Assembly: GCA_001002765.1 (NCBI GenBank)
Contig: LCMS01000002.1
Span: forward strand, 1,454-65,453
Direction: 5' to 3'
Length of the DNA stretch: 64,000 nucleotides
From: Candidatus Uhrbacteria bacterium GW2011_GWE2_46_68
GTDB taxonomy: Bacteria > Patescibacteriota > Patescibacteriia > UBA9934 > GWF2-40-263
Shown in pieces: positions 1 to 61,939 of this stretch; position 1 is the first letter of the stretch, and each line of letters begins with the position of its first letter. A program made the position numbers and the translations under genes. The notes under the pieces are model-generated. The model had not been told where the DNA came from. It was given only the letters and a program-made list of their open reading frames with translations, and searched no databases.

Positions 1-240
1 GTGAGCGCACCCACTCAAAAAAATCAACGCAAAAAACCAAAGGTTTTTCATGACTTCTCCTGTTTTTCCGGTTTGGTTGGAAAGGGCAAGAAAGAGAACA
101 ATGATTGCGCTCTTTCTCACACTTTTCAAGGATAAAACATTGGTTCAAAACCGCATGTTTTGCCCAGTTTTGAACGAGTAAATATAGCACAAAAAGGCCG
201 TTTTGTCAACGCTTCCATGCATTTTTGAAATATGGTGATG

Positions 241-272
241 GGTCGGTAGGGGCAAGCGGCCGTTCGCCCCTA
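241..272. repeat. GC-rich near-perfect palindrome GTAGGGGCAAGCGGCCGTTCGCCCCTAC (copy 1 of 3; arms slightly imperfect)
   Basis: Read directly. Same palindrome recurs at 53586-53613 and 54458-54485. Confidence 0.8.
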
Positions 273-379
273 CATGAGTCGATTATGATTGACAAAATCG
301 CCAAAAATTGATACAAAACCACGTCTTCTGTGCGCGGAAACCCCGCGTAAAGAAGCTTGAAAAAGCTCTTTCCAACACC

Positions 380-432
380 ACAACAAGTCACCACCCCATC
401 CCCCTTCGTTCCGCCAACGGCGGGACTTCGGG
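380..432 (+). repeat. Structured repeat copy A (ATCCCCC-TTCG-TTCCGCC-AAC-GGCGGGAC-TTCG-GGGGGAT), in the 5' leader of the CDS starting at 464
   Basis: Shares its core with 19028-19080 and 27744-27800. Outer and inner stems are maintained by compensatory changes. A possible -35/-10 promoter (TTGACA at 286-291) lies upstream. Confidence 0.7.
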
Positions 433-463
433 GGATAAACCACCGCGCACGGAGAAAATCACC

Positions 464-2935
464 ATGTCTATTTTTGACCTTCACAAAGTACTGACCGAGT
501 CAGGTGGACTCCTCATTGGAGAAAGCGTGGAAATGGCCGCCACTGATGTGGCCGAAGCCCTTCCTGGAAAAGAGCTTGTCAAACAGCTCCTCAAGAGGAT
601 TCCAGGGGCAAGGCCTCTTGCCGCTCATGCGGCTAATCCACTTTTTTTCAAAGGCCTTGGTATTGCCATGGCCGCGGTTTTGCCCGCAATGGCAGACCAG
701 GTGCTTCCAGGAAACAACAATGCCAATGTGGCCAGAGCTCGCGATATCATCAAAAAGCTCGGACCACACCTGTCGATCGGCTTTGGCCACGGTATCGCCA
801 ATCAGTTCGAGTATGAGCGGGCTGTTGAACAGGCCATTGATGATGCGGATGCTGATCGCCTTCCCGCGATTGTGACTGCAACCGACGGTTCTGCCCCGGT
901 TATGGTTGCCTGGAGTCCGGAGCTTGAGGGGTATCATCCCTCCATGCCCAATGATTCCAAGGATCCTGACGCGGTCAAAAAGGAACCCTATGTAGTCTTG
1001 TGCTCCACCTATCAGAGAATGAAGCAGCGCCTGGGCGCCGGATTCAAGGAAGTTTTCATGACCAAGGATGACGCCGAACTTCGCGGGTTTCGTCCCGCCG
1101 GCTGTTGTCAGGTCACGATTTCCGCAATCGAGGCTGGAAAGAAAAAGGGGAAACCCGGATTTTTCGAAGCAATCGGTGAAGAGGGTCGTGCGCTTACCCG
1201 CGCGTTTGTGAGGACTGCGATTTTCAAGGATCCCACAGGCAAGCAAGTCGGCATTGATTTTGGCAAAGAGATTTTGCCCCACATGCCCCCCGAGCATTGG
1301 GCATACCTTGGAAACCATATCAAGGCAGACCCTGTTACCGGCCTTCTGTCGGATGAAGATTATGATGAGGTCGTAGGCCATATTCGAGTCTTCGGAAAGG
1401 GGACTTTGGAATTTGGCACCAAGATCCTTCTGGCGCTTCAATGGGCATATCGGCAACTCAATGCACACCCGAAGATTGCCAAGGCAGGAAAGATTGCAGG
1501 CATTATCGTTATTGTCTTGACCATTATTTTCGGCATCTTCGCAGTCTTTGCTGGGATCGCGACAGTCGTTGGGTCGATCGTCCTCTACCTCGTGGCCTCC
1601 TTGGCCGCGCATGGTGGTTGGGCGGTTGGTCTTATGGCGCTTGCAATCGGGTTGCTCTTTTTGTGTCGGATTCCCCTGGCCTCCAGTCAGGCAATGACCA
1701 ATTGGATCGCGAAGTGGATCCCCGGTGAACAAAAGACCGTGACCTGGATGAAGCAGGTTGCCGATGAGGCGTTTGCATTTTTCGCAACGTCGTCGTGGTT
1801 TTTCTTCTGGCTCGTGATTTTTGATGCCGGATTTGTCGCGCGCATTTCGATGTGGTTCCTGTATTTTTTGACCTGGGCCGGACTTCACTACGCAAACAAG
1901 AGCTTCAACTTCTCTTGGGTGCGTGATGTGGAATTCGCCAGGGCAAAGATTTTCCAAGTTCTCACTATGGCGCAGATCGCCCTTATCTTCTTGCTCACAC
2001 TTGCGGGCTGGCCGGAGATTCCCACCACAGACCTCACGATTGAAAGTCGCACGGTTTCATTGACCAAGTCAGATGGGACGGTTTACAGCCCCACCGCGTC
2101 ACTGATTCCTACTCCCCAGGGGACGTATTTCCTGGCCGAGGACGTGATGGGTCAATCCAAGGCCATCCAGATGGCACAGACAAATGGTTTGATCACCCTC
2201 GATTCCGGAGCGCGTTTCGATCTGCCTGGTTATCAGCTTAAGGAAGAGGATCTGGGAAACGGGAAGGTGACCTACAAGGTTGCCACAGCTCCCAAGATTT
2301 TTTTCTGGGAGTGGATGCCGCATTGGATCGGGTATGGGCCGCAAGAGTTGGGAAGTAACGAGGAAATCATTGCGCGTGTTCTCGAGATTGACGCTGCTCG
2401 ACAGCTTACCTTGGCTTCGGCTGAGGGGCTTTTGGCCGCAGAAGTGGATCCCGCACTCCAAGACGCCAAGGCTTACTACCTTGATCATGCCAAGCATAAG
2501 GATCGTGTGTGGCGGTGGGTGGGGACTTTCCTGCTCCTGCCCCTGACCTTTATCGGGTATTGGTTCTTGCGAAAGACCGAGGTGGTCGAGAGCAAGTTTG
2601 GAAACTCGGTTGCGGTGAGCAATCAGCCCAACAATATCGGTCGCAGTCTTCTCTTCGTTGTTCCACTTATGGCCATGTTCGGTCTGTGGAGTGGTCCGGC
2701 AAGCGAAGCGGGATGTCATGGATGTGGTGGTTGCAGTTGTGTACATCATCCAACCGCTTCTCACGGTTGCGGGTGTAGCGGATGTTCCTTGCCTATGCCA
2801 AACACCTCGTCTTCCCAAAAGTCAAAAGCTAAGGGGAGTGAGGAGACGTCTGATACAGAGAACGAAGATTTCAAGCGGCTTTGCCGCGAGTCGACGCCAG
2901 AGGGTCGACAGACTCTCGGTTGCCCAAATCCTTAG
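464..2935 (+). CDS. Large polytopic membrane protein of unknown function with a Cys/His-rich C-terminal tail (CHGCGGCSCVHH...HGCGCSGCS)
   Basis: ORF 308..2935. Start moved to the ATG at 464, which has a GGAGA RBS, because the upstream codons translate the repeat element. About 8 hydrophobic helices sit in the middle. No family recognised. Confidence 0.5.
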   Translation: MSIFDLHKVLTESGGLLIGESVEMAATDVAEALPGKELVKQLLKRIPGARPLAAHAANPLFFKGLGIAMAAVLPAMADQVLPGNNNANVARARDIIKKLGPHLSIGFGHGIANQFEYERAVEQAIDDADADRLPAIVTATDGSAPVMVAWSPELEGYHPSMPNDSKDPDAVKKEPYVVLCSTYQRMKQRLGAGFKEVFMTKDDAELRGFRPAGCCQVTISAIEAGKKKGKPGFFEAIGEEGRALTRAFVRTAIFKDPTGKQVGIDFGKEILPHMPPEHWAYLGNHIKADPVTGLLSDEDYDEVVGHIRVFGKGTLEFGTKILLALQWAYRQLNAHPKIAKAGKIAGIIVIVLTIIFGIFAVFAGIATVVGSIVLYLVASLAAHGGWAVGLMALAIGLLFLCRIPLASSQAMTNWIAKWIPGEQKTVTWMKQVADEAFAFFATSSWFFFWLVIFDAGFVARISMWFLYFLTWAGLHYANKSFNFSWVRDVEFARAKIFQVLTMAQIALIFLLTLAGWPEIPTTDLTIESRTVSLTKSDGTVYSPTASLIPTPQGTYFLAEDVMGQSKAIQMAQTNGLITLDSGARFDLPGYQLKEEDLGNGKVTYKVATAPKIFFWEWMPHWIGYGPQELGSNEEIIARVLEIDAARQLTLASAEGLLAAEVDPALQDAKAYYLDHAKHKDRVWRWVGTFLLLPLTFIGYWFLRKTEVVESKFGNSVAVSNQPNNIGRSLLFVVPLMAMFGLWSGPASEAGCHGCGGCSCVHHPTASHGCGCSGCSLPMPNTSSSQKSKAKGSEETSDTENEDFKRLCRESTPEGRQTLGCPNP

Positions 2936-3029
2936 GTTAGGGAGCCAACGAGCCTCGTGCATGCACGGGGCTTTTCTTTTTGGAAAACAAAACCACCGCG
3001 ATTGCTCGCGGCGGCTTTCACAATTGGAT

Positions 3030-3365
3030 TTACCAGTTGCTATTGTTGCTTTGCTGATAACCTCCACCACTGGAGCGGCGGTTGTTGTAACCACCACTGG
3101 AGCGAGGGGGACGATCAGCCATGGGGCGGGCTTCATTGACAGTGATGGCGCGGCCATCAACCATTTTTCCGTTCATGCCGTCAATGGCTGCTTGCGCTTC
3201 CTCATCGGTAGACATTTCCACAAAGCCGAAGCCTTTGGAACGTCCAGACATCTTGTCCACGATAACCGTGGCCGAGACGATAGAACCGAAGGCAGAAAAC
3301 GCTTCACGCAAACTCTCTTCCGTTGTGTCGTAAGAGAGGTTTCCGCAATATAACTTCTTTGCCAT
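3030..3365 (-). CDS. RRM-type RNA-binding protein with a glycine/arginine-rich tail
   Basis: Has the RNP1-like KGFGFVEM motif and the RNP2-like LYCGNLSY motif. The C-terminus is RSSGGGY-rich. Confidence 0.85.
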   Translation of the reverse strand: MAKKLYCGNLSYDTTEESLREAFSAFGSIVSATVIVDKMSGRSKGFGFVEMSTDEEAQAAIDGMNGKMVDGRAITVNEARPMADRPPRSSGGYNNRRSSGGGYQQSNNSNW

Positions 3366-3505
3366 AGATCTCTAATGTGAGTTTTATAAAAGGTGAGTTC
3401 GACCTTTTCTTTCCTGCTTCACATAAGTAACTATGGAGAGAGAAAAAGAAAAACACTCGTGAGCAAGGATAGCAGATTTTATGGGAAAAAGCAAGGGGTA
3501 AGGCC

Positions 3506-3919
3506 TCATTTGTTCATTTTTGAGAGCAAAAAGGCGCTTACTAGGGCCTGGAGGAGAATTGTAAAGCTCCAACTCGCGATCATGATAAGGGAAAGAGGAA
3601 AGCTGCTGTAGGACATGATCATGCCGGGAATCGTGAGAACCCAATAGCCAAGACCAAAAAGAATCCAAGGGCGATGACACTTACAAACCTGGAAACAAGG
3701 TTTTGTTTTGTTCCAAACCCAAGCGAGGATAACGCCAAGCACAAAAGGTTCGACAAACATAAGAGACATGAGCGGATCGGACCAAGGGCGGAAAATTCCG
3801 GATGTCTCATATTCGGCCATAAGGGAGGGAAGGAGGACGCCGGTTAGTGCATTAAGGATGAGACTAACGATGACCATAGCAAGACCTGCCAAGAGTCCTG
3901 GAAGAAGGATGTGTTTCAT
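3506..3919 (-). CDS. Small integral membrane protein (about 137 aa), unknown function
   Basis: Start trimmed to the ATG at 3919 (MKHILLPGLLAG...). Four predicted TM helices. Confidence 0.45.
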   Translation of the reverse strand: MKHILLPGLLAGLAMVIVSLILNALTGVLLPSLMAEYETSGIFRPWSDPLMSLMFVEPFVLGVILAWVWNKTKPCFQVCKCHRPWILFGLGYWVLTIPGMIMSYSSFPLSLIMIASWSFTILLQALVSAFLLSKMNK

Positions 3920-3938
3920 AAAAAAGTTTAAGAATAAC

Positions 3939-4979
3939 TTATGTGAGTGAAAGAGCGTCTTCCACTGCTTTACGGAGAGAAAGAAGATGTTGACGCTGCG
4001 TGGAGTTTTTTTGATTCGTAATATTTTCAAAAAAACATCGTACAGAATCTTTTTCCAAATCCGTTTCATTTGCCAATCGATGTATAAGTGTGTGCACGTC
4101 CTCTGCATCTTTTTTTGTTTTAAGTAGTGCGGCAATTTCAGGATCAGCGGAAAAAATTTGATACAGCGTTTCGCCGGTCATTCCTTTTTTTATCTGTGGC
4201 GCCACACGCCGCACCACGAACTCTGTGCGCTGTTTTATCGCTTCCTCTTCTTTACATAATATCTCTTCAATAGTATCCATGTCTTCCAAAGTCAGCGTTC
4301 CTGTCGCAGCCAATTCTTGCAAATCCACAAGATCATAAGGACGCCCGCAGTGCAATTTGAAGTAAGCGACTTTTGCCGGATGAGATAAGAAAATTTTTTT
4401 TCCTCGATACAGAAAGGGTCTCGGTGTATACCAAGATTCCGGAAGTTCCACTTGTTGATACCCCAAAGGTTTTCCCTCCGCGTTTCTTTTGACCAAATGG
4501 ACATCAATAAAATTCAGCGGATGATCAAATCGGATGTTTCCATTTTTGTCGATCGCCACTAAAGAACGATCTTTCTCTGATTCACGAATCTCACCGGCTG
4601 TTGCCCAGACCATTCCTTTTTTATTTGGATCCTCGTGTCCTACGGTTAGAAAAAATGCATAGCCTTGTGTATAAAGATGTTTTTCCAGATCTTCCAAATC
4701 CTCGGGTTCCACAAACAAATCCACATCTTTATGGACACCGATATAGTCTCCCTTGAGAAGGGAGATATTAAGAGCGCCATCCAGTTGCCAGCGTACAGAC
4801 GTGCCGGATAGGAGGTCGCTTAATTGATCTAGTTTTGTGTCCATCTCTTTGCGATCTTCCGGTGTAGGAATACGTCGTTTTTCAAAAGCTCCTTGTGCTT
4901 CATCGTGAAAAGCAGGCCGTTCTTGTTGGCGTTTTTGCGTTCGTAAATCTTGGAGGGGGATTGGAGAGCCTTCTCTCAT
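3939..4979 (-). CDS. Nucleotidyltransferase-fold protein resembling the Lnu(A)/ANT(2'') lincosamide/aminoglycoside nucleotidyltransferase family
   Basis: The motif WQLDGALNISLLKGDYIGVHKDVDLFV matches the W-LDGGW...G....H.DIDL signature of LnuA/ANT(2''). The ATGA start overlaps the stop of the downstream S51 peptidase gene. Confidence 0.5.
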   Translation of the reverse strand: MREGSPIPLQDLRTQKRQQERPAFHDEAQGAFEKRRIPTPEDRKEMDTKLDQLSDLLSGTSVRWQLDGALNISLLKGDYIGVHKDVDLFVEPEDLEDLEKHLYTQGYAFFLTVGHEDPNKKGMVWATAGEIRESEKDRSLVAIDKNGNIRFDHPLNFIDVHLVKRNAEGKPLGYQQVELPESWYTPRPFLYRGKKIFLSHPAKVAYFKLHCGRPYDLVDLQELAATGTLTLEDMDTIEEILCKEEEAIKQRTEFVVRRVAPQIKKGMTGETLYQIFSADPEIAALLKTKKDAEDVHTLIHRLANETDLEKDSVRCFFENITNQKNSTQRQHLLSLRKAVEDALSLT

Positions 4980-5590
4980 AGAGATGAAGAAATAAGGGTT
5001 TGTTTTTCACCTGTGATCAATAGTGCCTGGCCATCTGCAACAGGGAGGACGGGGTAGGAAACTTTTTTGCAAAATGACTCGACTTCATTTTTTTGTTCTG
5101 GCTTGTAATGAGGAAAGATCGCGGTATCCGTAAGATGAAAACCTTTCAAATTTTTTAGTTGACGTTCGTTCATATCCCCCTCACTTCCCCAACCGGCAAT
5201 TTCGATATCCGGTCCGGCAATAATACTTCCCGCACTGATGCCGACATATATGGATCGATCTGCCAAGATCGCTTGTTCGATGACCTGATCCATCCCCGTC
5301 TTTTGCAATCGATCCAGATAGAGAAACGTATTTCCTCCACACACACAGAGAACATCTGCAGAAATTTGTGGCGGAATTTTTTCTTCAAGAAGATTGTAGA
5401 CAGAAATTTTTTCTATGCCCATGGATTGCAGTTCTTCCCTATCCATATCAATCCAACGCTGTTCCTCAGGAGATTGAACACAGACGATCAAGAAAACCGA
5501 ACATTCTTGTGGAGGTTTGACGAGTAGGGAGAGAAAGGTTTGTTTGATCGCGTCAGTCGACCAACCATCTGAGGTCAAAAGAAGTTTCAT
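4976..5590 (-). CDS. Peptidase S51 (dipeptidase E/cyanophycinase-like) family protein
   Basis: The motifs GGNTF and GISAGSII match the S51/class-I glutamine-amidotransferase-like fold. Start trimmed to MKLLLTSDG at 5590. Confidence 0.6.
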   Translation of the reverse strand: MKLLLTSDGWSTDAIKQTFLSLLVKPPQECSVFLIVCVQSPEEQRWIDMDREELQSMGIEKISVYNLLEEKIPPQISADVLCVCGGNTFLYLDRLQKTGMDQVIEQAILADRSIYVGISAGSIIAGPDIEIAGWGSEGDMNERQLKNLKGFHLTDTAIFPHYKPEQKNEVESFCKKVSYPVLPVADGQALLITGEKQTLISSSL

Positions 5591-5648
5591 AGTGTGAGAA
5601 CTATAGCGTAACAAAAACACTCTGGACGAGCCAGAGCGTTTTATTTTT

Positions 5649-6047
5649 TTATTCCGTTGTTTGTTCGTCAAACTCCGCTTCATTCGCCATAGCTTCTTCC
5701 TTGGTCGCGCGGACAATACCATCTTTGTGATGGGCAGGAGAATAGATCGTATAGAGTTTAAGATCCTCGGTTTTGGAAACATTGATGACATTGTGCGTGG
5801 CTCCCGCAGGGACAATGACAGCCGATCCATCAATGACATCATAGCTATTTTCATCAATGATACATTGCCCTCGCCCATGTTCGAAACGAAAAAATTGATC
5901 GTTATCGGTATGTACTTCCATACCGATTTCCTCCCCGGGTTTGAGGCTCATAAGAACTAGTTGGCAGTGTTTGCCTGTGTAGAGTACTTTGCGGAAATTA
6001 TTGTTGGATAATGTATCTTGCTCGATATTTGCATGGAAACCTTTCAT
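5649..6047 (-). CDS. Cupin domain protein
   Basis: Cupin motifs G(X)5HXH-like (EIGMEVHTDNDQFFRFEHGRG) and PAGATHNVIN. Confidence 0.6.
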   Translation of the reverse strand: MKGFHANIEQDTLSNNNFRKVLYTGKHCQLVLMSLKPGEEIGMEVHTDNDQFFRFEHGRGQCIIDENSYDVIDGSAVIVPAGATHNVINVSKTEDLKLYTIYSPAHHKDGIVRATKEEAMANEAEFDEQTTE

Positions 6048-6095
6048 AGATTTTGGCGATTATGTTTTCTTTCCCTCCATGTTACTCTATCTTAT

Positions 6096-6518
6096 ATGAA
6101 CATCACACTCGGCATATGTGAGAAAAATTTTTTGGAAACACTTGAAGGACATGAGGAAATACTGTTTTCCGATAAGGGGAAGTATCATGCTATTTTTTGT
6201 GATCACAAAAAAGTGGGGGTCGTTGGTTTTATCCCCGTCGTGTTCCCGAAGTGCACAGGGTTCGTGCAGATCGTTATCGATCCCAAAAGTCGAGGGAAGG
6301 GGATGGCAGAGATTGCGGAAGATTTACTTGCGCAAAAATATCATCTACGCGCCCTGTATGCCACAATTAAAATAGATAACCTCGCTTCCATCCGAGCTCA
6401 TCGTAAAGCGGGATTTACAATGATAGACGAAAAAAGGCTGGAAGTATTAAGAGATCAGGGTTTGTTGGGCGAAAATGAAATAAGGATGGAGAAAGAATAC
6501 AAAATTTTCACAGAATAA
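6096..6518 (+). CDS. GNAT family N-acetyltransferase
   Basis: Acetyl-CoA-binding motif VIDPKSRGKGMAEIA with GFTMIDE at the C-terminus. Start at MNITLG (6096). A bidirectional terminator hairpin lies at 6520-6550. Confidence 0.6.
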   Translation: MNITLGICEKNFLETLEGHEEILFSDKGKYHAIFCDHKKVGVVGFIPVVFPKCTGFVQIVIDPKSRGKGMAEIAEDLLAQKYHLRALYATIKIDNLASIRAHRKAGFTMIDEKRLEVLRDQGLLGENEIRMEKEYKIFTE

Positions 6519-6559
6519 TAAAAACTCCAGGCGAACTGGAGTTTTGTGTGCAAGCTCGT

Positions 6560-7078
6560 TTATTTTGTAAGTTGCCAAGATCGAATGCGTCCGAAATAAT
6601 TTGATGTGACAGAGATGAATTGTGTTTGATCATAAATGTCTTTCACACGCTCGCTAAATGTCTGATCAGCGTTGCAAAAATCAGAGCTGTACCAAGTGTC
6701 CACGACGTTTCCTTCTGCATTGAGCGCGTTCATACGACTTCCTTCATAGCCGACTATTGGAAAAAGGAGAGTTGATATATCCCCGTTTACATTTTTTACT
6801 TTTACCGAACCCGGGAATATTTGTGATCCTGGATTGCAGGATCCGTTTATAACAAGTACTTGTTCCACTTTCGTTGTAAAAGACATCCAGACAAAAATTC
6901 CACACAAGAGAAAGAAAACAACAACTCCACAATCGATGAGTTTTCGCATTTTTGGTTTATGTTGACGAAGCTTTAAGACCCAAAAAACAATAAGAGCTAT
7001 TACGATGATAGTGATAGCTCCCACAACCCCGATGAGGATGGGCCAAGGATTGTTGGCCACAAGGAGTCCGGTTTGCAT
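6560..7078 (-). CDS. Membrane-anchored hypothetical protein
   Basis: ORF with one or two N-terminal TM helices and no recognisable domain. Confidence 0.35.
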   Translation of the reverse strand: MQTGLLVANNPWPILIGVVGAITIIVIALIVFWVLKLRQHKPKMRKLIDCGVVVFFLLCGIFVWMSFTTKVEQVLVINGSCNPGSQIFPGSVKVKNVNGDISTLLFPIVGYEGSRMNALNAEGNVVDTWYSSDFCNADQTFSERVKDIYDQTQFISVTSNYFGRIRSWQLTK

Positions 7079-7155
7079 AGGAGGATATATTTTATTTGTT
7101 CGTACTAATGATACTCATCTTAGCCTGTATGGCTTCCGATTCCGATTTTCAATTT

Positions 7156-7245
7156 TGGCGGAGAGGGAGGGATTCGAACCCTCGATACCCTTTCGGATAT
7201 ACATGATTTCGAGTCATGCGCTTTCGACCACTCAGCCACCTCTCC
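7156..7245 (-). tRNA. tRNA-Ser (anticodon CGA)
   Basis: Cloverleaf read by hand: acceptor GGAGAGG/CCTCTCC, anticodon loop CTCGAAA, long variable arm, T-loop TTCGAAT, CCA encoded. Confidence 0.8.
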
Positions 7246-7258
7246 ACGCGTCAAAATA

Positions 7259-7906
7259 TCATTGCCCACCTTCACCGTCAACGAAATTTTTTTGCGCACC
7301 CTGCGAGGCGATGGATCGCGCCATGGCGATCATCTCCCCTTTCGTCATTTTTTCGCCATCAGATGCAATCGTCACCACCACCTCTCCTGCCTCAAACAAC
7401 ATTACTTCTGAAAACGGACAGACTCCTGGGAATCCTTCCACATTTATTTCACACAAAGGGAGAACTCCATGCATGGGAAAGAGATAGGCGATTTTTTCCT
7501 CCACCATTACCTCATCCACATTGGTCGTCAGATATTTTGCCCGCTCCTCACCGAGTGTTGTGTTTGGGGTAAAAGTGATCTGTCCTGTGCGCCAATTTTC
7601 TTTTGTAAAGACCGCGATGACGGTTCCATCAAGATAGATGCCAATCACAAATATTTCATTCCCAAACACATCCTCGGGAAGCCAGAGGGCTGTATCAGTT
7701 TTTGCCAGGGCTTCTTCCCACGATGAGGTTTGAATCACCCCATCTTCTTGCAACAAAAGAGGGATGGGAGAGTCAGGGATCATCCATTGGACTAAGCGAA
7801 TAATGACCGCGGTAAAACAAACAAACGCAAGAAGGACAAGGAAAAATTTTACGCTTCCTTCACGCGTGGTCGGATGATGACGCAAGATGCGGTTTAGAAT
7901 CATAAG
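7259..7906 (-). CDS. Hypothetical protein with an N-terminal TM segment
   Basis: ORF 7259..7984. The 5' end overlaps the upstream gene, so the start is uncertain. No domain recognised. Confidence 0.3.
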
Positions 7907-9122
7907 AAAAAAGAAGAAGAGCAAAGAACATCCAAACAAGAACAGAAAGATCGTTTTTGAAATAAGGAACATCCACAAGACCATGAATCAGCATTTCAAA
8001 AAAGATGGCGAGACACAGGATTCCAACCCAAGAATGACGTACGCGAGGAATGGCACGGATCAAAAGATATCCAAGATACAAAAGAAGGATTATTCCCAAT
8101 ATTCCAAGCTCTACCCAAGTATTAAAAATGATATGGTGCGGGTATTGAAAAATTTCGATGTAGGTATGCGTGTGATAGGGAACAAGCGCTGTGGGATATC
8201 CTGCAAGTCCTGCACCGACGATCGGGTGATCTTTGAGAAGCTCCCACGTTTCTTCCCATTGTGTCAGTCGGACAGATCCGGAATAGTCTTGTAAGGTCAG
8301 TTTTTGAAAAATAAAAGTGCGCGCCGATGGAATGAGAACGATTGGAATGATCACAAGGACTGCAAGGGGAAGAGAAATTTTTCGCCAAAATTTTGATGCA
8401 AGAGAGAGAAGAAAGAGTGTGATAGTGACTGCAAGAATCGCTGCTTCGCTTTGCGCAAGAATAATGGCCACCCCACTTAAAAACGCAGCGACCATCCAGA
8501 AAACAAATTGTTTTTTGTTTTGTGATTGCCATGCTTGTCTTCCGGCAAAGATTCCCATAAGAATAAGGGGGCCAAGATATAATCCCACCGCATTAGGATA
8601 AGGGAAAAAACTTGTGACACGTCGCTCGATATCCCAAGGCACGGGAATACCAATTTGGAACATCCACTGCACGATCGCAAAAAGGGCGGTGAGGAGTGCC
8701 CCACACCCCAAAGCCACAAAAAGAGAAGAAAGATTTTTTTGATCGCGCACAAGAACGCGAACAAGAAAGAACAGGATGATCGGTTCCACAAAATACGCCT
8801 TCCAAACTCCAAACCCGGCAAGCACATTTGGTGCGGGTAAAAGAGCAATCGTTGCGGTAACGAGAGATCCGATCGTAAAAATTTTCCATGGCAAAGGAAG
8901 GGTTTTCCACGCATGCAAAAATGAATGCGGTTGTTTTGTGAGTGCCACGATTGCGAGGATCAGGATCATTCCTTCCAAAAATGTCATGGGGATCTTGAGA
9001 ATATCAAAACGCAAAAGATAGGTAGGAAGTCCAAAGGCGATCAAACACAATCCGTATTTTGGTTCGCGCCAACAGATGAAGGTGAAAAAAATGAAGAGGA
9101 GCCCAAGAAGAAATGGATACAT
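7860..9122 (-). CDS. Polytopic membrane protein, O-antigen ligase/polymerase (Wzy/WaaL)-like
   Basis: More than 10 TM helices with a large periplasmic loop. Adjacent to a Wzx-like flippase. Assignment is by topology and context only. Confidence 0.4.
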   Translation of the reverse strand: MYPFLLGLLFIFFTFICWREPKYGLCLIAFGLPTYLLRFDILKIPMTFLEGMILILAIVALTKQPHSFLHAWKTLPLPWKIFTIGSLVTATIALLPAPNVLAGFGVWKAYFVEPIILFFLVRVLVRDQKNLSSLFVALGCGALLTALFAIVQWMFQIGIPVPWDIERRVTSFFPYPNAVGLYLGPLILMGIFAGRQAWQSQNKKQFVFWMVAAFLSGVAIILAQSEAAILAVTITLFLLSLASKFWRKISLPLAVLVIIPIVLIPSARTFIFQKLTLQDYSGSVRLTQWEETWELLKDHPIVGAGLAGYPTALVPYHTHTYIEIFQYPHHIIFNTWVELGILGIILLLYLGYLLIRAIPRVRHSWVGILCLAIFFEMLIHGLVDVPYFKNDLSVLVWMFFALLLFSYDSKPHLASSSDHA

Positions 9123-9124
9123 AT

Positions 9125-10561
9125 CTAGCGTTTAGTCGGGAGAAAACGTGAAGGGATCAGTGTTTTGATTTCTGTTGTGCTTATTCCTTTGACCGCAAAC
9201 AGGACAGCCAGATAGACAAGGGCGCCAAGAGTAATATCCGTGAGCACATGGAAAGAATGAAAGTGAGTGAGGAAGAGATACATGACCAAGGAAGCAAAGA
9301 GGGCCTTACCCGTTTTGATAAGACATGGGAAACAACGAGAAGAAAATGTGACCACAAGAAAAGTGAGAAGGGCGATCGCACATTCGGAAAAAATGGTGAC
9401 TCCCACTGCACCCCACACGCCATAGAGAGGAATAAACCAAAGGTAGCCCGCAACAGAAAGGATGGCCACACTCGCATATCCCCACATCATGAGTTTTTGT
9501 TTCTGTAAGGCAACGACGATATGACCATACAAGGTGCCGATGAACACTCCCAAAATAGCGATAATAAGATAGCGCAAAATCGTGCCGGAAATTACATATT
9601 GATCTCCGGCCACAAAAGTCATAAGCGCAGTTCCAGTCGCTTGGACGCCGATTAAAATCGGGATGACGGCGATCATAAAAATATCAAAACTGCGGCGCAA
9701 CATGCGGTTAAAATCTTCTGTACGTTTTTGTGTCCATGCTGTGACCATGGTGGGAAGAAGAAGCCCCATAAACATGGTGGGGATAGCAGTCAAAATGTCC
9801 AAAATGCGATACGTGACGCCATACATCGCGACTTCTTCTTGTGTGCGCAGTAAAGATAACAAAATAATATCGCCTTTGAGGTAGAGGAGGTTGAAAAGAA
9901 TGGAAACGGCAATGGGCCAACTACGAAGAGCGGCTTGTTTCCATATGGTAAAATCAAATCGCGGTTTGATGCGCAAAAACGGTTTAGCAAAAAAGATCAT
10001 GGCAACAAGCCAGACAATATTGGAGAGGATCAGAGAGGCCACCATAGAGATGACACCAAGACGAAGCCAAACAAACAAGAGAATGATAATGACCAATATC
10101 GTGCGATTGATAAGTTCGGCAACCGCCGGCCGCCACATGCACGCATGTTTTTGAAAAATACCTGTGAGGAGACTTGCGCCACCCATGATCCAGTAAGCGA
10201 TCGCACCCACAAGGACCGCTTGCTGAATGCTGGCAGACCAAGGGAAAAAGAAAACAAGAATCGCGGCAAGCGCAAAGAGGATTCCGCCCGAAAGCATGCG
10301 CATGGCAAAAAAGTTTCCCACGATTTTTTCTTCTTGTGCATCGGGTTCGGAAATCATCACAATCAAGGTCAACGTGAGTCCGAAGTCTACAATCACTCCA
10401 AAAAATTGAAGATAGGTAATCGCGGTCGTGTAGGATCCGAAATCACTTGTGGAAAGATATCGCGTCAAAATCGCGATCACGACAAGTCCCACAAGAAGCG
10501 ATCCTATTTTTCCAAGAACTTGAACAAAGAAGTTTCCCGCAAACGTTTTAGCTTGAATCAT
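9125..10561 (-). CDS. Polysaccharide biosynthesis / oligosaccharide flippase (Wzx, MOP superfamily)-like protein
   Basis: 478 aa with about 12-14 TM helices. The N-terminus (NFFVQVLGKIGSLLVGLVVIAILTRYL) is typical of Wzx/MOP flippases. Confidence 0.55.
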   Translation of the reverse strand: MIQAKTFAGNFFVQVLGKIGSLLVGLVVIAILTRYLSTSDFGSYTTAITYLQFFGVIVDFGLTLTLIVMISEPDAQEEKIVGNFFAMRMLSGGILFALAAILVFFFPWSASIQQAVLVGAIAYWIMGGASLLTGIFQKHACMWRPAVAELINRTILVIIILLFVWLRLGVISMVASLILSNIVWLVAMIFFAKPFLRIKPRFDFTIWKQAALRSWPIAVSILFNLLYLKGDIILLSLLRTQEEVAMYGVTYRILDILTAIPTMFMGLLLPTMVTAWTQKRTEDFNRMLRRSFDIFMIAVIPILIGVQATGTALMTFVAGDQYVISGTILRYLIIAILGVFIGTLYGHIVVALQKQKLMMWGYASVAILSVAGYLWFIPLYGVWGAVGVTIFSECAIALLTFLVVTFSSRCFPCLIKTGKALFASLVMYLFLTHFHSFHVLTDITLGALVYLAVLFAVKGISTTEIKTLIPSRFLPTKR

Positions 10562-10648
10562 AAAGATTGTCTTTAGTGTAGCACGCGTTCAAAACAGGAG
10601 GAATGATCAATGTTTTCCGTTCTTCTTCTTTATTGTGTATAGATTCGA

Positions 10649-12640: not shown

Positions 12641-12661
12641 AGAATTCAAAAAAATCCTGGA

Positions 12662-13240
12662 TTACTCCAGGGTTTTTGTTTGTGCAGAACTTGTCATCTC
12701 TTGTCGCTTGCGTTCCCGATTATCTTCAACCACATGGATAATCTGTTCTTTTATTTTTTCAGGCTTCGATATTTCTTTAAAATGAAATTGTTTCATCTGC
12801 CCCGCCGTTTGAATCACGACATCTCCATAATCGAGCATGGTACGAATGACTCCTTGCACATCAGAGGTGACGTCTTGCACTGCATCTAAGGGAAGCTCGG
12901 AGGCAATACGACTGAACAATCCTTTTTGTTCAATATTGATGACGCGTTCATTGGTGACGATCCAAGTATCCAGATAAAAATCCGTAAACTCCATGAAGGC
13001 AAAAAGCCAAACCGCAAGAAAATAAATGATCGCGACGGTGGCAAAAAGCGGCCCCAAGAGCGGATGCTCGTACCAGGTTTGAATTTCATCCGCATACACA
13101 GTGAGACCGGCAGCCAGAGGAGCGCCGATAAAAAAGATCGCGGCAGTAACAAGTCTTGTATTGGTGATCCAGTGACGGCGGAGAAATAAAATCACTTTTT
13201 CATCCTTGCGTTGATTGGGAAGATGATCAAGGCGCATCAT
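12662..13240 (-). CDS. Bacterial PH (bPH_2, YdbS/YdbT-like) domain membrane protein
   Basis: Two TM helices followed by a PH-like domain (YLDTWIVTNERVINIEQKGLFSR...DYGDVVIQTAG). Confidence 0.6.
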   Translation of the reverse strand: MMRLDHLPNQRKDEKVILFLRRHWITNTRLVTAAIFFIGAPLAAGLTVYADEIQTWYEHPLLGPLFATVAIIYFLAVWLFAFMEFTDFYLDTWIVTNERVINIEQKGLFSRIASELPLDAVQDVTSDVQGVIRTMLDYGDVVIQTAGQMKQFHFKEISKPEKIKEQIIHVVEDNRERKRQEMTSSAQTKTLE

Positions 13241-13542
13241 ATGGGAAGGATGGTTTGTGAATAATCTTCAAAAAAGTTTTTCAAAGAGATCGAAGCGGTC
13301 CAATCTATATCCAGTGTAATGAAGATGGCCAGACTCACAAGAAAAACGGTTCCAAGAATATAGATTGTGGAGATGATATACAGACCGAAGTTGTAGACGC
13401 CGAATCGAAACAGATGGTAGAGGTTGAACAGACTGTAGAGAACAAAAACGAAAAAAAAGATTCCCAGAGGAAGGAGTAGCCAAGAGACGGAAAGTGAAAG
13501 AGAGGAGAAAATTTCTAGGTCCATAGGGAGATAGTGTAACAC
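13237..13542 (-). CDS. Small membrane protein (2-3 TM), probable partner of the bPH protein
   Basis: ATGA start/stop overlap with the downstream bPH gene. Hydrophobic. Confidence 0.4.
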   Translation of the reverse strand: MLHYLPMDLEIFSSLSLSVSWLLLPLGIFFFVFVLYSLFNLYHLFRFGVYNFGLYIISTIYILGTVFLVSLAIFITLDIDWTASISLKNFFEDYSQTILPI

Positions 13543-13545
13543 GCA

Positions 13546-14583: not shown

Positions 14584-14684
14584 ATCACCTGTATTATGCG
14601 GGAAAGAAAGGGGAGGAGCAAGGTAAACAAGAGGATGAATTTGACGAAGAATCGTCAAGAGAGTACTTTATTCAAGTAAAGTCT

Positions 14685-14978
14685 ATGTCAATCAAAAAAG
14701 ATCCCTGGAATCAGACAGAAGCACAAGCCTTGCTCGATGCTTTTTTCCTTTTGAAAAATCAAGAAGAACTACGTTGTTTTTTACGCGATTTATTAACGGA
14801 GAAAGAAATTGCAGAGTTTAGTTTGCGATGGAAAGTCGCCAAGATGTTGAGCCAGGGAATTCCTTATACGACGATTGTGGAGGAAACGGGTATGAGTTCG
14901 ACAACGATCGCTCGCGTTCAGAAATGGCTCACGGCGGGAAAAGGAGGGTACCGTCTTATTCTTGATCGACAAAAATAG
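14685..14978 (+). CDS. YerC/YecD family TrpR-like DNA-binding protein
   Basis: VAKMLSQGIPYTTIVEETGMSSTTIARV...YRLILDR matches the YerC/YecD (Trp-repressor fold) family. Start at MSIKKDPW. Confidence 0.75.
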   Translation: MSIKKDPWNQTEAQALLDAFFLLKNQEELRCFLRDLLTEKEIAEFSLRWKVAKMLSQGIPYTTIVEETGMSSTTIARVQKWLTAGKGGYRLILDRQK

Positions 14979-14981
14979 TGT

Positions 14982-15539: not shown

Positions 15540-15676
15540 CTTCATTTTTACTTTCCATCATTTTTATACTTTTTCCTTGGGAGAGGAGATGGGCTTTGGT
15601 TTGCAATGACGATTTGTTTAGTAGCCAAGGTCAATCCCTTCTCCGAAGGGATTTTTCTTTTGAGAAGGGTGTGCGT

Positions 15677-16552: not shown

Positions 16553-16576
16553 ACCCGAGGAAACACCTTGGGTTTT

Positions 16577-16605
16577 TTTGACAAGAAAGAATTATGGGTA
16601 TATAT
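16577..16605 (+). promoter_or_regulatory. Sigma70-like promoter (TTGACA-N17-TATATT) upstream of the DUF5320/DUF134 pair
   Basis: Hexamers read directly, with a 17-nt spacer. Confidence 0.5.
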
Positions 16606-18954: not shown

Positions 18955-19027
18955 AAAATAAGCCGCATGCGCGGCTTGTTTTGTATGGATGAATCGATTC
19001 TGATTCCAGCTTAAAGTCTAAAACAGT

Positions 19028-19110
19028 TTCAGAGTCCCCCTTCGTCCCGCCGATGGCGGAACTTCGGTGGGACATCCCCCATAGCTCCAACTTTGTTGGA
19101 GCGACGGGGG
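19028..19110. repeat. Structured repeat copy B plus a second hairpin, immediately 3' (on the - strand) of tRNA-Leu(TAA)
   Basis: GTCCCCC-TTCG-TCCCGCC-GATG-GCGGAAC-TTCG-GTGGGAC, then GCTCCAAC-TTTG-TTGGAGC. Confidence 0.7.
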
Positions 19111-19111
19111 A

Positions 19112-19198
19112 TGGTGGGCGAGGTGGGATTCGAACCCACGAGACCTTTCGATCAGCAGATTTTAAGTCTGCCGCGTATACCAGCTCCGCCACTCGCCC
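19112..19198 (-). tRNA. tRNA-Leu (anticodon TAA)
   Basis: Hand-folded: anticodon stem-loop GCAGA-CTTAAAA-TCTGC, long variable arm, T-loop TTCGAAT, CCA encoded. Confidence 0.8.
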
Positions 19199-27111: not shown

Positions 27112-27660
27112 CTACTTAAACCACGCCACAACAGAAAGACTTGAAGCAATACGGGAATATTTTTTATAAGAATTGATAATTTTTATCTCTATTTTTTTTC
27201 GAAGACGAATAAGTTTACTGTTTTCACATTTTAAATTTGACGGAGAAACACTTTCTGGACCCCGTACTTTAAAATACTCGATAAAATCACTTCTTAAACT
27301 GTCGTCGATAACATTAAAGTTGTTGACGGTGTATTCAAAAAATTCTTGCTCATCAAAAACTATTCCACTATTTTTTCTTACAGTTTTCTCTGATGCTGAG
27401 GGAATTTGATCAAAATTAAATGAATGAAACCAACCACAGTTTTCTTTATTATGAATTTTATCGGCTATTGAAACTGAAAAATCTTCTCTCATTTTTACAA
27501 AAGCGTAAGCAATCGTGTAAAAATTATCTAGTTTTATCTTTGCTTTTCGTTTTTTGTTTCTAGAAAGGGGCAAGAAAATTTCTATTGCCAAAACAGAGGA
27601 TATAATTCCTAAAATAGCGCTGATTATTTCTTGATAACTTTCGATAAAATCAGAAAACAT
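27112..27660 (-). CDS. AT-rich orphan hypothetical protein with an N-terminal TM helix
   Basis: Start trimmed to MFSDF (27660). The upstream extension of the ORF translates the repeat element. Visibly lower G+C than the flanks. Confidence 0.35.
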   Translation of the reverse strand: MFSDFIESYQEIISAILGIISSVLAIEIFLPLSRNKKRKAKIKLDNFYTIAYAFVKMREDFSVSIADKIHNKENCGWFHSFNFDQIPSASEKTVRKNSGIVFDEQEFFEYTVNNFNVIDDSLRSDFIEYFKVRGPESVSPSNLKCENSKLIRLRKKIEIKIINSYKKYSRIASSLSVVAWFK

Positions 27661-27743
27661 AAATTTTTTTGGTGGCCTGCCACCCGTCCGCCCGGATAAG
27701 ACTGTGGCGGATCCGCCTCTGGCGGAAAGCTCCGAAGGAATAA

Positions 27744-27810
27744 CAGTTTCAGAGTCCTCCTTCGTCCCGCCATCGGCGGGACTTCGGAGGGGCATCCCGC
27801 CTACGGCGGG
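27744..27810. repeat. Structured repeat copy C plus a second hairpin (CATCCCGCC-TAC-GGCGGGATG), immediately 3' of tRNA-Leu(TAG)
   Basis: GTCCTCC-TTCG-TCCCGCC-ATCG-GCGGGAC-TTCG-GAGGGGC. The outer stem CCTCC/GGAGG carries a compensatory change relative to the other copies. Confidence 0.7.
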
Positions 27811-27811
27811 A

Positions 27812-27896
27812 TGGTGGGCGAGGAGAGACTCGAACTCTCACGGGAAAACCCACATGGTCCTAAGCCATGCGCGTATGCCAATTCCGCCACTCGCCC
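27812..27896 (-). tRNA. tRNA-Leu (anticodon TAG)
   Basis: Hand-folded: anticodon loop CTTAGGA, long variable arm, T-loop TTCGAGT, CCA encoded. Confidence 0.75.
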
Positions 27897-42098: not shown

Positions 42099-42229
42099 CC
42101 AGCTCTTTTTTTGCATTCATGATTTTAACTTGCTTATTCCACGCAGCTTGGCCTACTCCGCCGAAGTAGCTTCGGCTACGAAGGCCGGACTGCGCAGAGG
42201 TTCATTTGGCTCGTTGCCGTCAGTCATAA

Positions 42230-59595: not shown

Positions 59596-59776
59596 TTATC
59601 CATCCGGATAAAATTTTTGCGGAAAATTTTGAATGATAAACAGTTTCATCTTTTTCTTCTTTCGTGTGGCACGACAGAACCCCTTACTCTATTTTGAATG
59701 ATGGGGGGTGTGGCGCTGTCAGGTTGAAGTCTTGACGAAGACTGGCTTACCCCCGAAGCTCCAAAGGAGCGAAGGG

Positions 59777-59853
59777 TGGTGGGCGTGGGAGGACTCGAAC
59801 CTCCGACCTTCACATTATCAGTGTGACGCTCTAACCACCTGAGCTACACGCCC
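59777..59853 (-). tRNA. tRNA-Ile (anticodon GAT)
   Basis: Hand-folded: anticodon loop CTGATAA, T-loop TTCGAGT, CCA encoded. Confidence 0.8.

Positions 59854-60497: not shown

Positions 60498-61939
<1,442 letters not shown>

What the first reader, a model, noticed from the sequence alone, without database searches (positions are those of the whole stretch)
380..432. Three-copy structured repeat with compensatory base changes (outer stem / TTCG / inner hairpin / TTCG / outer stem)
Copies lie at 380-432, 19028-19080 and 27744-27800. They share the architecture C5-TTCG-(G)TCCCGCC-N3-4-GGCGGGAC-TTCG-G5. Between copies, the outer stem changes CCCCC/GGGGG to CCTCC/GGAGG. The inner stem varies T/G, C/G and C/A at one position. 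Those variations preserve pairing on one or the other strand, which indicates selection for secondary structure rather than for sequence. Copy A sits in the 5' leader of the large membrane-protein gene, downstream of a TTGACA box. Copies B and C lie immediately 3' of the two tRNA-Leu genes and share an extra 15 nt (AACAGTTTCAGAGTCC). The element could be a cis-regulatory RNA, a tRNA 3'-trailer processing or termination structure, or a small REP/MITE-like mobile repeat.
Basis: seen in the sequence. Interest (0 to 1): 0.65.

Follow-up and report, generated by a model that had tools for sequence, protein, structure and literature searches.

The report
Dispersed two-tier hairpin repeat near tRNAs
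The three copies are real members of a large, undescribed family of about 40-base two-storey hairpin repeats that come and go between related genomes, cluster at tRNA gene ends in groundwater bacteria, and look like the tip of a conserved ribosomal RNA helix.

Summary
Three copies (397-438, 19033-19074, 27753-27794) share this layout: a C-rich arm, TTC, an 8-bp GC hairpin with a 3-nt loop, TTC, and a G-rich arm. A covariance model finds a fourth, diverged copy abutting tRNA-Ile (59747-59781, minus strand) and one weak candidate.

The window comes from a Candidatus Uhrbacteria genome (CPR). No Rfam family matches, and a sequence search of the literature found nothing.

Copy A is not a conserved leader element. 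Orthologous leaders carry 0, 1 or 2 units. Apical loops flip to their reverse complement between relatives. Copies occur in either orientation, in tandem arrays, and in frame inside genes. Twenty of 98 unique copies lie within 80 nt of a tRNA gene, against about 2 expected.

Copy B sits upstream of a canonical terminator, so it is not the terminator.

Read on the GAA strand, the element resembles the distal part of 16S rRNA helix 44.

Best reading: a REP-like selfish palindromic repeat carried in transcripts as a very stable hairpin. This is a new variant of a known kind and of moderate interest.

The parts
397..438 (+). Copy A. Sequence: CATCCCCC-TTC-GTTCCGCC-AAC-GGCGGGAC-TTC-GGGGGATAA. It lies in the 5' untranslated leader of the 823-aa gene, whose ATG is at 464 with a GGAG 10 nt upstream. 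It reads TTC on the gene's strand.
   Evidence: One search gives 60.5 bits. It is absent from orthologous leaders L228 and L230 and doubled in L231.
19033..19074 (-). Copy B, in the 3' trailer of tRNA-Leu(taa). It reads GAA on the tRNA strand. The inner pair is G.U on that strand, and the outer stem has one mismatch.
   Evidence: One search gives 53.6 bits. The same trailer module follows other tRNAs in relatives.
27753..27794 (-). Copy C, in the 3' trailer of tRNA-Leu(tag). It reads GAA on the tRNA strand. Both stems are perfect, with outer stem CCTCC/GGAGG.
   Evidence: One search gives 61.6 bits. Orthologs L157 and L189 carry it with the loop inverted.
59747..59781 (-). Sequence: CCA-CCC-TTC-GCTCC-TTT-GGAGC-TTC-GGGG. 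It directly abuts and overlaps the CCA end of tRNA-Ile on the same strand. It has the same frame but a shorter, different inner hairpin.
   Evidence: 23.9 bits, E=3.5e-4. Sequence.
42154..42191 (-). Weak candidate copy E. Sequence: GTCCGGCC-TTC-GTAGC-CGAA-GCTAC-TTC-GGCGGAGT. It lies between the convergent TspO-like and histidine-phosphatase genes.
   Evidence: 19.2 bits, E about 0.007..
19073..19113 (-). Hairpin H1, between the CCA of tRNA-Leu(taa) and copy B. It has the same two-tier design and the same outer stem as copy A (CATCCCCC/GGGGGATG). Its internal loop is GTC x TAT and its inner hairpin is GCTCCAAC-AAA-GTTGGAGC.
   Evidence: Read. L140 has a compensated variant of the inner stem.
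27793..27813 (-). Hairpin H1 between the CCA of tRNA-Leu(tag) and copy C: CATCCCGCC-GTA-GGCGGGATG. In relatives L157 and L189 an AT-rich palindrome takes its place.
27660..27752 (-). Conserved trailing module downstream of copy C: ACTCTGAAACTGTT..TCCTTCGGAGC, TCCGCC-AGA-GGCGGA, TCCGCC..GGCGGA, GGTGGCAGGCCACC. Relatives carry the same module behind other tRNA genes.
   Evidence: No Rfam match.
19022..19037 (.). The 16-nt extension shared by B and C (27742-27757 in C). It is the start of the conserved trailing module.
18960..18977 (.). Canonical bidirectional intrinsic terminator that ends the tRNA-Leu(taa) transcription unit downstream of copy B.
19112..19198 (-). tRNA-Leu(taa), with an encoded CCA.
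27812..27896 (-). tRNA-Leu(tag), with an encoded CCA.
59777..59853 (-). tRNA-Ile(gat). Its 3' end forms part of copy D's C-rich arm.
60566..60603 (-). Distal segment of 16S rRNA helix 44: CACCC-GAA-CGTCGCC-GTAG-GGCGGCG-GAA-GGTGGGAC. This is the natural structure that the element resembles when read on its GAA strand.
285..396 (+). Conserved promoter-like box and leader of the 823-aa gene, into which copy A is inserted. The leader resumes at 439-463.

Best explanation
The element is one member of a large, undescribed family of small dispersed palindromic repeats. These are REP-like, non-autonomous 'selfish' DNA.

The unit is a two-tier hairpin of about 40 nt with these parts:
- a C-rich arm
- TTC
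- a GC-rich hairpin that starts with G and ends with C, most often GTCCCGCC-NNN-GGCGGGAC
- TTC
- a G-rich arm

Units are gained, lost, tandemly duplicated and internally inverted at the DNA level on short evolutionary time scales. They settle mainly in transcribed non-coding DNA, especially next to tRNA genes, where a tRNA acceptor strand can serve as one arm.

When transcribed, a unit forms a very stable hairpin (-21 to -27.5 kcal/mol in either orientation). Its most likely cellular effect is passive. It would act as a structural barrier or end-protecting hairpin in tRNA trailers, spacers and leaders, as proposed for REP elements. It is unlikely to be a gene-specific switch.

Shown here: the family, its architecture and covariation, presence/absence and copy-number polymorphism, loop inversion, enrichment at tRNA genes, and the fact that B is not a terminator.

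Inferred: the mobility mechanism, since no mobilising enzyme was identified, and any effect on RNA stability.
For: Host contigs range from GC 0.34 to 0.70. Their labels include Patescibacteria, Omnitrophota, Planctomycetia, Verrucomicrobiota and Acidobacteriota.

**Structure under selection.** 92.9% of cells are paired. Double changes occur in 8 of 15 pairs. Slid controls give 37-49% paired. Of 76 unique strict copies, 40 have at least 6 of 7 outer pairs. When flanks are re-dealt among copies the mean is 21 and the maximum 28.

**Turnover at orthologous sites.**
- The leader of the 823-aa gene carries 0 units in L228 and L230, 1 in the window and 2 in L231.
- L228 has two units downstream of the same gene where the window has none.
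- The spacer after tRNA-Ile differs in L232.
- Another 42 kb of Uhrbacteria sequence has no copy.

**Inner hairpin inverted between relatives.** ATC and GAT are exchanged. Loop triplets occur as reverse-complement pairs across the family: AAC 8 / GTT 6, ATC 4 / GAT 4, TGT 5 / ACA 3.

**Varied contexts.** Tandem arrays are seen in L123, L211, L170 and L192. Both orientations relative to flanking genes occur. In-frame copies lie inside a multi-copy 460-aa gene family.

**tRNA enrichment.** 20 of 98 unique copies lie within 80 nt of a tRNA gene, against about 1.8 expected.

**No prior description.** There is no Rfam family, and the literature holds no relevant mention of the sequence.
Against: - No mobilising enzyme was found. 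There was no IS200/IS608-like TnpA in 1.58 Mb of loci, though the queries came from memory.
- No clear target-site duplication flanks whole units.
- The same core and the same TTC/TTC loop recur in distant phyla. This is unlike classical REPs, which are species- or genus-specific, and it hints at a sequence-specific function.
- The internal loop triplets are essentially invariant while both stems vary. This is more than a selfish palindrome needs.
- There is a bias towards the GAA reading on transcribed strands. Near tRNAs it is 17 to 3, and between co-directional genes 13 to 8. Wobble pairs show a weak excess on the GAA strand, 30 to 17.
- The element resembles 16S helix 44.
- Phage contigs essentially lack it.
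Confidence: 0.55

Rival explanations
1. The element is a functional RNA module that mimics the distal stem of 16S rRNA helix 44. When transcribed in the GAA orientation, the hairpin presents the same C-rich and G-rich arms, GAA/GAA internal loop and CCGCC/GGCGG helix as h44. It would recruit an h44-binding factor to tRNA precursors and some mRNAs. That factor could be ribosomal protein bS20, which contacts the h44 tip, or a 30S biogenesis or processing enzyme. The result would couple the processing or stability of those transcripts to ribosome supply.
For: - One pattern hit (L023) lies inside a 16S gene. It reads CCC-GAA-GTCCCGCC-ATG-GGCGGGCC-GAA-GGTAGGAC, just upstream of AAGTCGTAACAAGG. The element model scores it at 28.7 bits.
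- The window's own h44 has the same frame.
- The Rfam bacterial consensus at that position is C-uGAA-Gccgcc...ggcggC-uAa-Gg.
- The GAA orientation predominates near tRNAs, 17 to 3, and in the 460-aa gene family.
- The loop triplets are invariant across phyla.
- bS20 hydrogen-bonds to G1458-G1459 at the h44 tip (PMC12991084).
Against: - A sizeable minority of copies are transcribed in the antisense (UUC) orientation. These include copy A and copy D, which is on the same strand as tRNA-Ile.
- Copies are gained and lost between close relatives.
- The orientation of tRNA-abutting copies is dictated by which acceptor strand serves as an arm.
- The resemblance to h44 is limited to about 40 nt.
- The window's own h44 tip is not detected by the element model at E<10.
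- No binding data exist.
Confidence: 0.17
2. The element is a tRNA 3'-trailer or spacer processing and stability signal. The hairpin would block 3'-to-5' exonucleases or position an endonuclease such as RNase III, E or Z, so that CCA-encoding tRNA precursors are trimmed correctly.
For: - B, C and D all lie just 3' of tRNA genes inside the transcription units.
- There is 11-fold enrichment near tRNA genes.
- The same hairpin-plus-element module follows at least five different tRNA genes in relatives: Leu-cag, Leu-gag, Leu-tag, Arg-ccg and one more not typed (L140).
- Some copies use the acceptor 3' strand as an arm: L021, L087, L164, L183 and copy D.
Against: - Only 3 of the 7 tRNA genes in the window have one.
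- About 80% of copies are not near tRNAs.
- Copies also sit 2-6 nt upstream of tRNA 5' ends, in mRNA leaders, between convergent genes and inside coding regions.
- The spacer after tRNA-Ile in L232 has different hairpins.
Confidence: 0.15
3. Copy A is a gene-specific cis-regulatory leader structure, such as an attenuator or riboswitch-like element, that controls the downstream 823-aa gene.
For: Copy A lies between a promoter-like box and the SD/ATG of the gene, and it folds stably.
Against: - Orthologous leaders that conserve every other leader segment lack it or carry two units.
- The same element occurs in unrelated contexts.
- There is no Rfam match.
Confidence: 0.04
4. The element is a rho-independent transcription terminator.
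For: It is a stable GC-rich hairpin, often found at gene ends and between convergent genes.
Against: - No T-run follows A, B, C or D.
- The organism uses canonical hairpin-plus-T-run terminators. One lies 50 nt downstream of B, and one follows tRNA-Phe.
- Copy A sits between a promoter and its gene.
Confidence: 0.04

Closest known systems
REP / BIME elements and REPINs of Proteobacteria, mobilised by RAYT transposases
   Same: - Short (20-40 nt) imperfect palindromes present in many copies.
- Mostly extragenic and transcribed.
- An internal asymmetry gives the unit an orientation.
- They occur singly, in pairs and in clusters.
- Turnover between strains is rapid.
- The proposed side effects are RNA-end protection and structural barriers.
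   Different: - No RAYT or IS200-like gene was found.
- There is no conserved 5' GTAG.
- The same core recurs in several phyla instead of one species group.
- The design is two-tier with an invariant symmetric 3x3 loop.
- Association with tRNA gene ends is strong.
Distal stem of 16S rRNA helix 44
   Same: Read on the GAA strand, the element has a C-rich 5' arm, GAA, a helix beginning G(N)CCGCC, a short cap, GGCGG(N)C, GAA, and a G-rich arm ending GGGAC. A 16S gene of a CPR relative (L023) matches the loose search pattern itself.
   Different: - The copies lie outside rRNA genes.
- Copies occur on both strands.
- Copies are polymorphic between relatives.
- The similarity does not extend beyond about 40 nt.
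- The Rfam consensus loop is 4x3 (uGAA/uAa), not 3x3.
Rickettsia palindromic elements (RPE)
   Same: Both are dispersed palindromic repeats that insert not only between genes but also in frame inside protein-coding genes and next to RNA genes. In relatives of the window organism, the element and related CCGCC hairpins lie in frame inside a 460-aa gene family.
   Different: RPEs are 100-150 bp, unrelated in sequence and confined to Rickettsia. No in-frame copy is present in this window.
Mobile GC clusters of yeast mitochondrial DNA
   Same: Both are very small GC-rich palindromes in an AT-richer genome. Both are flanked by a repeated trinucleotide (TAG there, TTC here) and are found singly and in tandem arrays. 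This comparison rests on my own knowledge of that literature.
   Different: - The host system is different.
- Here the repeated trinucleotide sits inside a larger hairpin.
- Empty C-rich/TTC/G-rich hairpins are not enriched, so a simple insertion-with-duplication model is not supported.
tRNA-linked 3' external transcribed spacers (e.g. 3'ETS-leuZ of E. coli) and phage T7 RNase III hairpins
   Same: Both are structured RNA segments co-transcribed behind tRNA genes, or between cistrons, in which a stem is interrupted by an internal loop.
   Different: No sequence similarity exists. There is no evidence here of sponge activity or RNase III cleavage. The element is not restricted to such positions.

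Membership tests
Any Rfam family | The sequence scores at or above the family's gathering threshold against its covariance model. | tested here: not met
   A whole-window scan at gathering thresholds found only rRNA and tRNA. A permissive scan of 27640-27900 gave only chance-level hits at E>0.6.
REP / REPIN-RAYT system | Short imperfect palindrome, dispersed in many mostly extragenic copies. | tested here: met
   The window has 4-5 copies. Public data hold more than 200 copies. Most lie between genes.
REP / REPIN-RAYT system | A cognate RAYT (IS200-like HUH Y1 transposase) gene, usually flanked by the repeats. | tested here: inconclusive
   tblastn with two IS200/IS608 TnpA sequences written from memory found nothing in 1.58 Mb of loci plus the window. 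The complete genome was not available.
REP / REPIN-RAYT system | The repeat sequence is specific to one species or genus, with a conserved 5' tetranucleotide such as GTAG. | tested here: not met
   The same core is found in contigs of GC 0.34-0.70 labelled as several phyla. The conserved flank is TTCG, not GTAG.
MITE (non-autonomous DNA transposon) | Terminal inverted repeats bounded by a target-site duplication, and derivation from a full-length IS element. | tested here: inconclusive
   Filled and empty orthologous sites exist, but their junctions show only CCACC microhomology and no clean duplication. The TTC direct repeat is internal to the unit. No parent IS was seen.
Intrinsic (rho-independent) terminator | A GC-rich hairpin immediately followed by a T-run on the transcribed strand. 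| tested here: not met
   The terminator scan of 1-20000 lists canonical terminators at 2950-2973 and 18960-18977 but none at A or B. The sequences after C and D have no T-run.
Gene-specific cis-regulatory leader RNA | The structure is conserved together with the regulated gene across orthologs. | tested here: not met
   The element is absent from the 77% and 74% orthologs' leaders and doubled in the 91% ortholog, while the rest of the leader is conserved.
Integron attC site | R''/R' boxes with conserved AAC...GTT, extrahelical bases, and uniform orientation behind gene cassettes. | tested here: not met
   The arms are CCNCC/GGNGG with no AAC/GTT. Orientations and contexts are mixed.
16S rRNA helix 44 (as a true rRNA segment) | The segment lies within a 16S gene, between CCGCCCGTCA and AAGTCGTAACAAGG. 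| tested here: not met
   Only L023, L065 and the window's own 16S satisfy this. None of the window copies A-E and none of the strict metagenome copies do.
16S rRNA helix 44 look-alike (resemblance, not membership) | C-rich arm, GAA, a G..CCGCC helix, a cap, GGCGG..C, GAA, and a G-rich arm. | tested here: met
   Direct comparison. The Rfam consensus is shown. The element model hits the L023 h44 tip at 28.7 bits but does not hit the window's own tip.

The most novel reading that the evidence does not exclude
The hairpin is a portable RNA mimic of the distal stem of 16S rRNA helix 44. It would be a new class of cis-acting module, shared by CPR bacteria and several other uncultivated phyla. It would bring an h44-tip-binding factor, such as bS20 or a 30S biogenesis or processing enzyme, to tRNA precursors and selected mRNAs, linking their fate to ribosome assembly. 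Its mobility would then be the means by which the module is distributed.
Probability: 0.12. Interest if true: 0.8.

Novelty: new variant of a known kind. Interest (0 to 1): 0.5.

Why it matters
Small palindromic repeats shape bacterial genomes and transcripts, but none has been described for CPR bacteria. Known families are confined to narrow host ranges. This family has an invariant internal loop, lies next to tRNA genes, occurs in several phyla of uncultivated bacteria and resembles a conserved ribosomal RNA helix.

If that resemblance is only superficial, the family is still useful:
- It marks misannotated genes. The public record translates straight through copy A.
- It marks strain-level variation.
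- It can break assemblies at repeats.

If the resemblance is functional, the family would be a new way of tying tRNA or mRNA processing to the ribosome.

Tried and rejected
- **Rfam.** A gathering-threshold scan of the window and a permissive scan around copy C found nothing relevant.
- **Literature.** A full-text search for the core sequence in six spellings returned only unrelated primer matches. A keyword search for REP-like repeats in CPR returned nothing relevant.
- **First genome-collection scan.** The pattern was too loose.
- **Phage origin.** The strict pattern gave 0 hits and the loose pattern 1 hit in 2.9 million viral contigs.
- **Nested-insertion model.** The idea was that an inner hairpin plus TTC inserts into the TTC loop of a pre-existing C-rich/G-rich hairpin. 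Such empty hairpins are not enriched, and whole units, arms included, are what differ between orthologous sites.
- **Replication-strand rule.** GC skew is positive along the whole window, yet A, B and C read TTC on the + strand while D and E read TTC on the - strand.
- **The 460-aa gene family as mobilising enzyme.** Its 5' end carries the element, but it has no Pfam, NCBIfam or PDB similarity and is absent from the window. The question is left open.
- **IS200/IS608 transposase search.** There were no hits. The queries came from memory, so this is weak evidence.
- **Wobble-pair asymmetry as a test of the functional strand.** The counts are 30 versus 17, which is suggestive but not decisive because the copies are related.
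- **Trailing module behind copy C.** A consensus fold gives several hairpins and possible alternative pairings but little covariation.

Full report
**1. What is there**

The three copies exist as described. The pattern TTCGTYCCGCCNNNGGCGGRACTTCGG matches at 405-431, 19041-19067 and 27761-27787, all on the + strand, and never in shuffled sequence. With their flanks, each copy folds into:
- an outer stem of 5-7 bp
- a symmetric 3x3 internal loop
- an 8-bp GC stem
- a 3-nt loop

Free energies are -21 to -27.5 kcal/mol on either strand. The internal loop reads UUC/UUC on the + strand and GAA/GAA on the - strand.

- The loop is always 3 nt.
- B and C are separated from the CCA ends of the two tRNA-Leu genes by a further hairpin each. 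The tRNA genes are on the - strand.

A covariance model built from 43 family members scores A, B and C at 60.5, 53.6 and 61.6 bits. It also finds a fourth copy at 59747-59781 on the - strand: CCA-CCC-TTC-GCTCC-TTT-GGAGC-TTC-GGGG. This copy overlaps the CCA end of tRNA-Ile. A weak fifth candidate lies at 42154-42191.

**2. Source organism and setting**

A window protein is identical to proteins of Candidatus Uhrbacteria (CPR/Patescibacteria) from Rifle groundwater. The window corresponds to GCA_003506835.1 contig DNYB01000003.1.

The organism uses ordinary hairpin-plus-T-run terminators. One bidirectional terminator sits at 18960-18977, 50 nt beyond copy B on the tRNA strand. A promoter-like site precedes tRNA-Leu(taa). 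Copy B is therefore inside the tRNA's 3' trailer and is not its terminator.

**3. The family elsewhere**

The strict scan alone gave 116 copies in 109 loci.

Host contigs span GC 0.34-0.70. Their labels include Patescibacteria (among them Uhrbacteria relatives, Woesebacteria and Doudnabacteria, plus a Saccharibacteria variant), Omnitrophota, Planctomycetia, Verrucomicrobiota and Acidobacteriota. Some are long, GC-rich contigs, so misbinning of CPR DNA cannot explain the spread.

Phage contigs essentially lack the element. It matches no Rfam family, and the literature search found no relevant mention.

**4. Structure is selected**

On the 43-sequence alignment, 92.9% of cells form standard pairs, against 37-49% when the partners are slid. 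Six of 7 outer-stem pairs and both free inner-stem positions show double changes.

That alignment was chosen for intact stems, so I repeated the test on all 76 unique strict copies. Forty have at least 6 of 7 outer pairs. When flanks are re-dealt among copies, the mean is 21 and the maximum 28. The arms are always C-rich on the 5' side and G-rich on the 3' side.

The inner hairpin is usually GTCCCGCC-NNN-GGCGGGAC. The same frame also carries other hairpins: GCTCC, GTTTAGC, GCTCAACC, GTCCCG and GTAGC. The TTC triplets hardly vary.

**5. It comes and goes**

The 823-aa gene downstream of copy A has homologs at 91, 77 and 74% identity. Their leaders keep the TTGACA box, the conserved leader segments, the GGAG and the ATG. 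The two distant homologs have no element, and the 91% homolog has two tandem units, one with a different inner hairpin.

Further differences between relatives:
- L228 has two adjacent units, in opposite orientation, downstream of the same gene where the window has none.
- The spacer after tRNA-Ile in L232 holds other hairpins.
- Another 42 kb from two other Uhrbacteria-like contigs has no copy.

Copy C differs from its orthologs at tRNA-Leu(tag), and copy B from the B-type trailer copies that follow other tRNAs in relatives, by having the loop as the reverse complement, ATC versus GAT. Across the family, loop triplets come in reverse-complement pairs.

Tandem arrays with periods of 41 and 68 nt occur.

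In relatives, the element lies in frame near the start of a multi-copy family of roughly 460-aa proteins of unknown function. The same genes contain a second in-frame pair of CCGCC hairpins.

**6. Where copies sit**

Twenty of 98 unique strict copies lie within 80 nt of a tRNA gene, against about 1.8 expected.

Copies that abut a tRNA use its acceptor strand as an arm:
- The 3' strand serves as the C-rich arm in L021, L087, L164, L183 and copy D.
- The 5' strand serves as the G-rich arm in L121, L130, L215 and L227.

In the window's lineage, one module of about 150 nt follows at least five different tRNA genes. It consists of a hairpin, the element in the GAA orientation and a conserved tail.

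Between protein genes, orientation is mixed. There are 13 GAA and 8 TTC copies between co-directional genes, 7 between convergent genes and 3 between divergent genes. No replication-strand rule holds in the window.

**7. Resemblance to 16S helix 44**

While looking for empty sites, I found that one pattern hit (L023) lies inside a 16S rRNA gene. It reads CCC-GAA-GTCCCGCC-ATG-GGCGGGCC-GAA-GGTAGGAC, just before AAGTCGTAACAAGG.

The window's own 16S has CACCC-GAA-CGTCGCC-GTAG-GGCGGCG-GAA-GGTGGGAC at 60566-60603. The Rfam bacterial consensus at that position is C-uGAA-Gccgcc...ggcggC-uAa-Gg.

Read on its GAA strand, the element therefore looks like a miniature of the distal stem of helix 44. The element model scores the L023 tip at 28.7 bits but does not detect the window's own tip.

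bS20 contacts the h44 tip (PMC12991084). Whether this resemblance reflects descent, mimicry or coincidence in a simple motif is not settled.

**8. Interpretation**

Gain and loss at orthologous sites, copy-number change, inversion, tandem arrays, intragenic in-frame copies and mixed orientation all point to a REP-like selfish palindromic repeat. Such a repeat would be carried in transcripts as a very stable hairpin (confidence 0.55). Its mobilising mechanism is unknown.

Several features go beyond what such a repeat needs:
- the invariant loop
- recurrence across phyla
- a bias towards the GAA orientation (17 to 3 near tRNAs; a weak wobble asymmetry of 30 to 17)
- the likeness to h44

These keep two rival readings alive: an h44-mimic RNA module (0.17) and a tRNA-trailer processing or stability signal (0.15). 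A gene-specific leader switch and a terminator are each largely excluded.

**9. Verdict**

The family is much larger and more mobile than three copies suggest. It is best filed as a new variant of the known class of small dispersed palindromic repeats. The unexplained resemblance to rRNA helix 44 makes it worth a targeted experiment.

Noticed in passing
window 308-2935: Public annotation calls the gene as 875 aa from TTG at 308 (P0001/P0007, e.g. KKU33676.1), which translates through copy A. Orthologs start at the ATG equivalent to 464 (823-834 aa), and a GGAG lies 10 nt upstream of that ATG. The start is probably misannotated because the repeat keeps the frame open.
   Followed up: partly
window 285-463: The leader of the 823-aa gene is conserved in relatives down to 74% protein identity. 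It contains small hairpins (GCGCGG..CCGCG, AAGCTT..AAGCT) and a long-range complement GTGCGCGG (331-338) / CCGCGCAC (443-450) that brackets the site where copy A is inserted. It may be a leader RNA structure in its own right.
   Followed up: partly
window 32063-35333 (+) and 60502-61946 (-): The rRNA genes are unlinked. 23S and 5S lie 25 kb from the 16S gene and on the other strand. The 23S match spans 3095 nt against a 2925-position model, suggesting an insertion. The 16S gene is short at 1445 nt.
   Followed up: no
window 59600-59745 (-): The spacer between tRNA-Ile and tRNA-Phe contains further repeated segments: TTCGTCAAGACTTC and CATTCAAAATAGAGTAAGGGGTTCTGTCGTGCCACACGA. Near-identical segments recur behind other tRNA genes in relatives (L129, L146, L156).
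   Followed up: partly
L208 2327-5110 and more than 30 other places in loci L119-L219: A multi-copy, often tandem family of roughly 460-aa proteins with no Pfam, NCBIfam or PDB similarity. The first 100 nt, an AT-rich hairpin plus the element, are nearly nucleotide-identical among paralogs that are only 50-72% identical in protein sequence. A second hairpin pair lies in frame inside the gene. The family is absent from the window.
   Followed up: partly
L228 2929-3006: Two family members sit back to back in opposite orientation downstream of the ortholog of the 823-aa gene. Their inner hairpins, GCTCAACC-AAA-GGTTGAGC and GTCCCG-TCATA-CGGGAC, differ from those in the window.
   Followed up: no
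L021 5288-5375: In a Patescibacteria genome, the tRNA-Tyr 3' end (..CCCACC) is followed by the element and then by a second CCCACC...TTCGGTGGGC hairpin. The tRNA end sequence is thus repeated twice downstream.
   Followed up: no
L006, L008, L020, L106 (Planctomycetota/Phycisphaerae contigs): Runs of CCGCC-NNN-GGCGGATC hairpins joined by TTCGRCC form tandem arrays. They may be a related but differently organised repeat family in GC-rich genomes.
   Followed up: no
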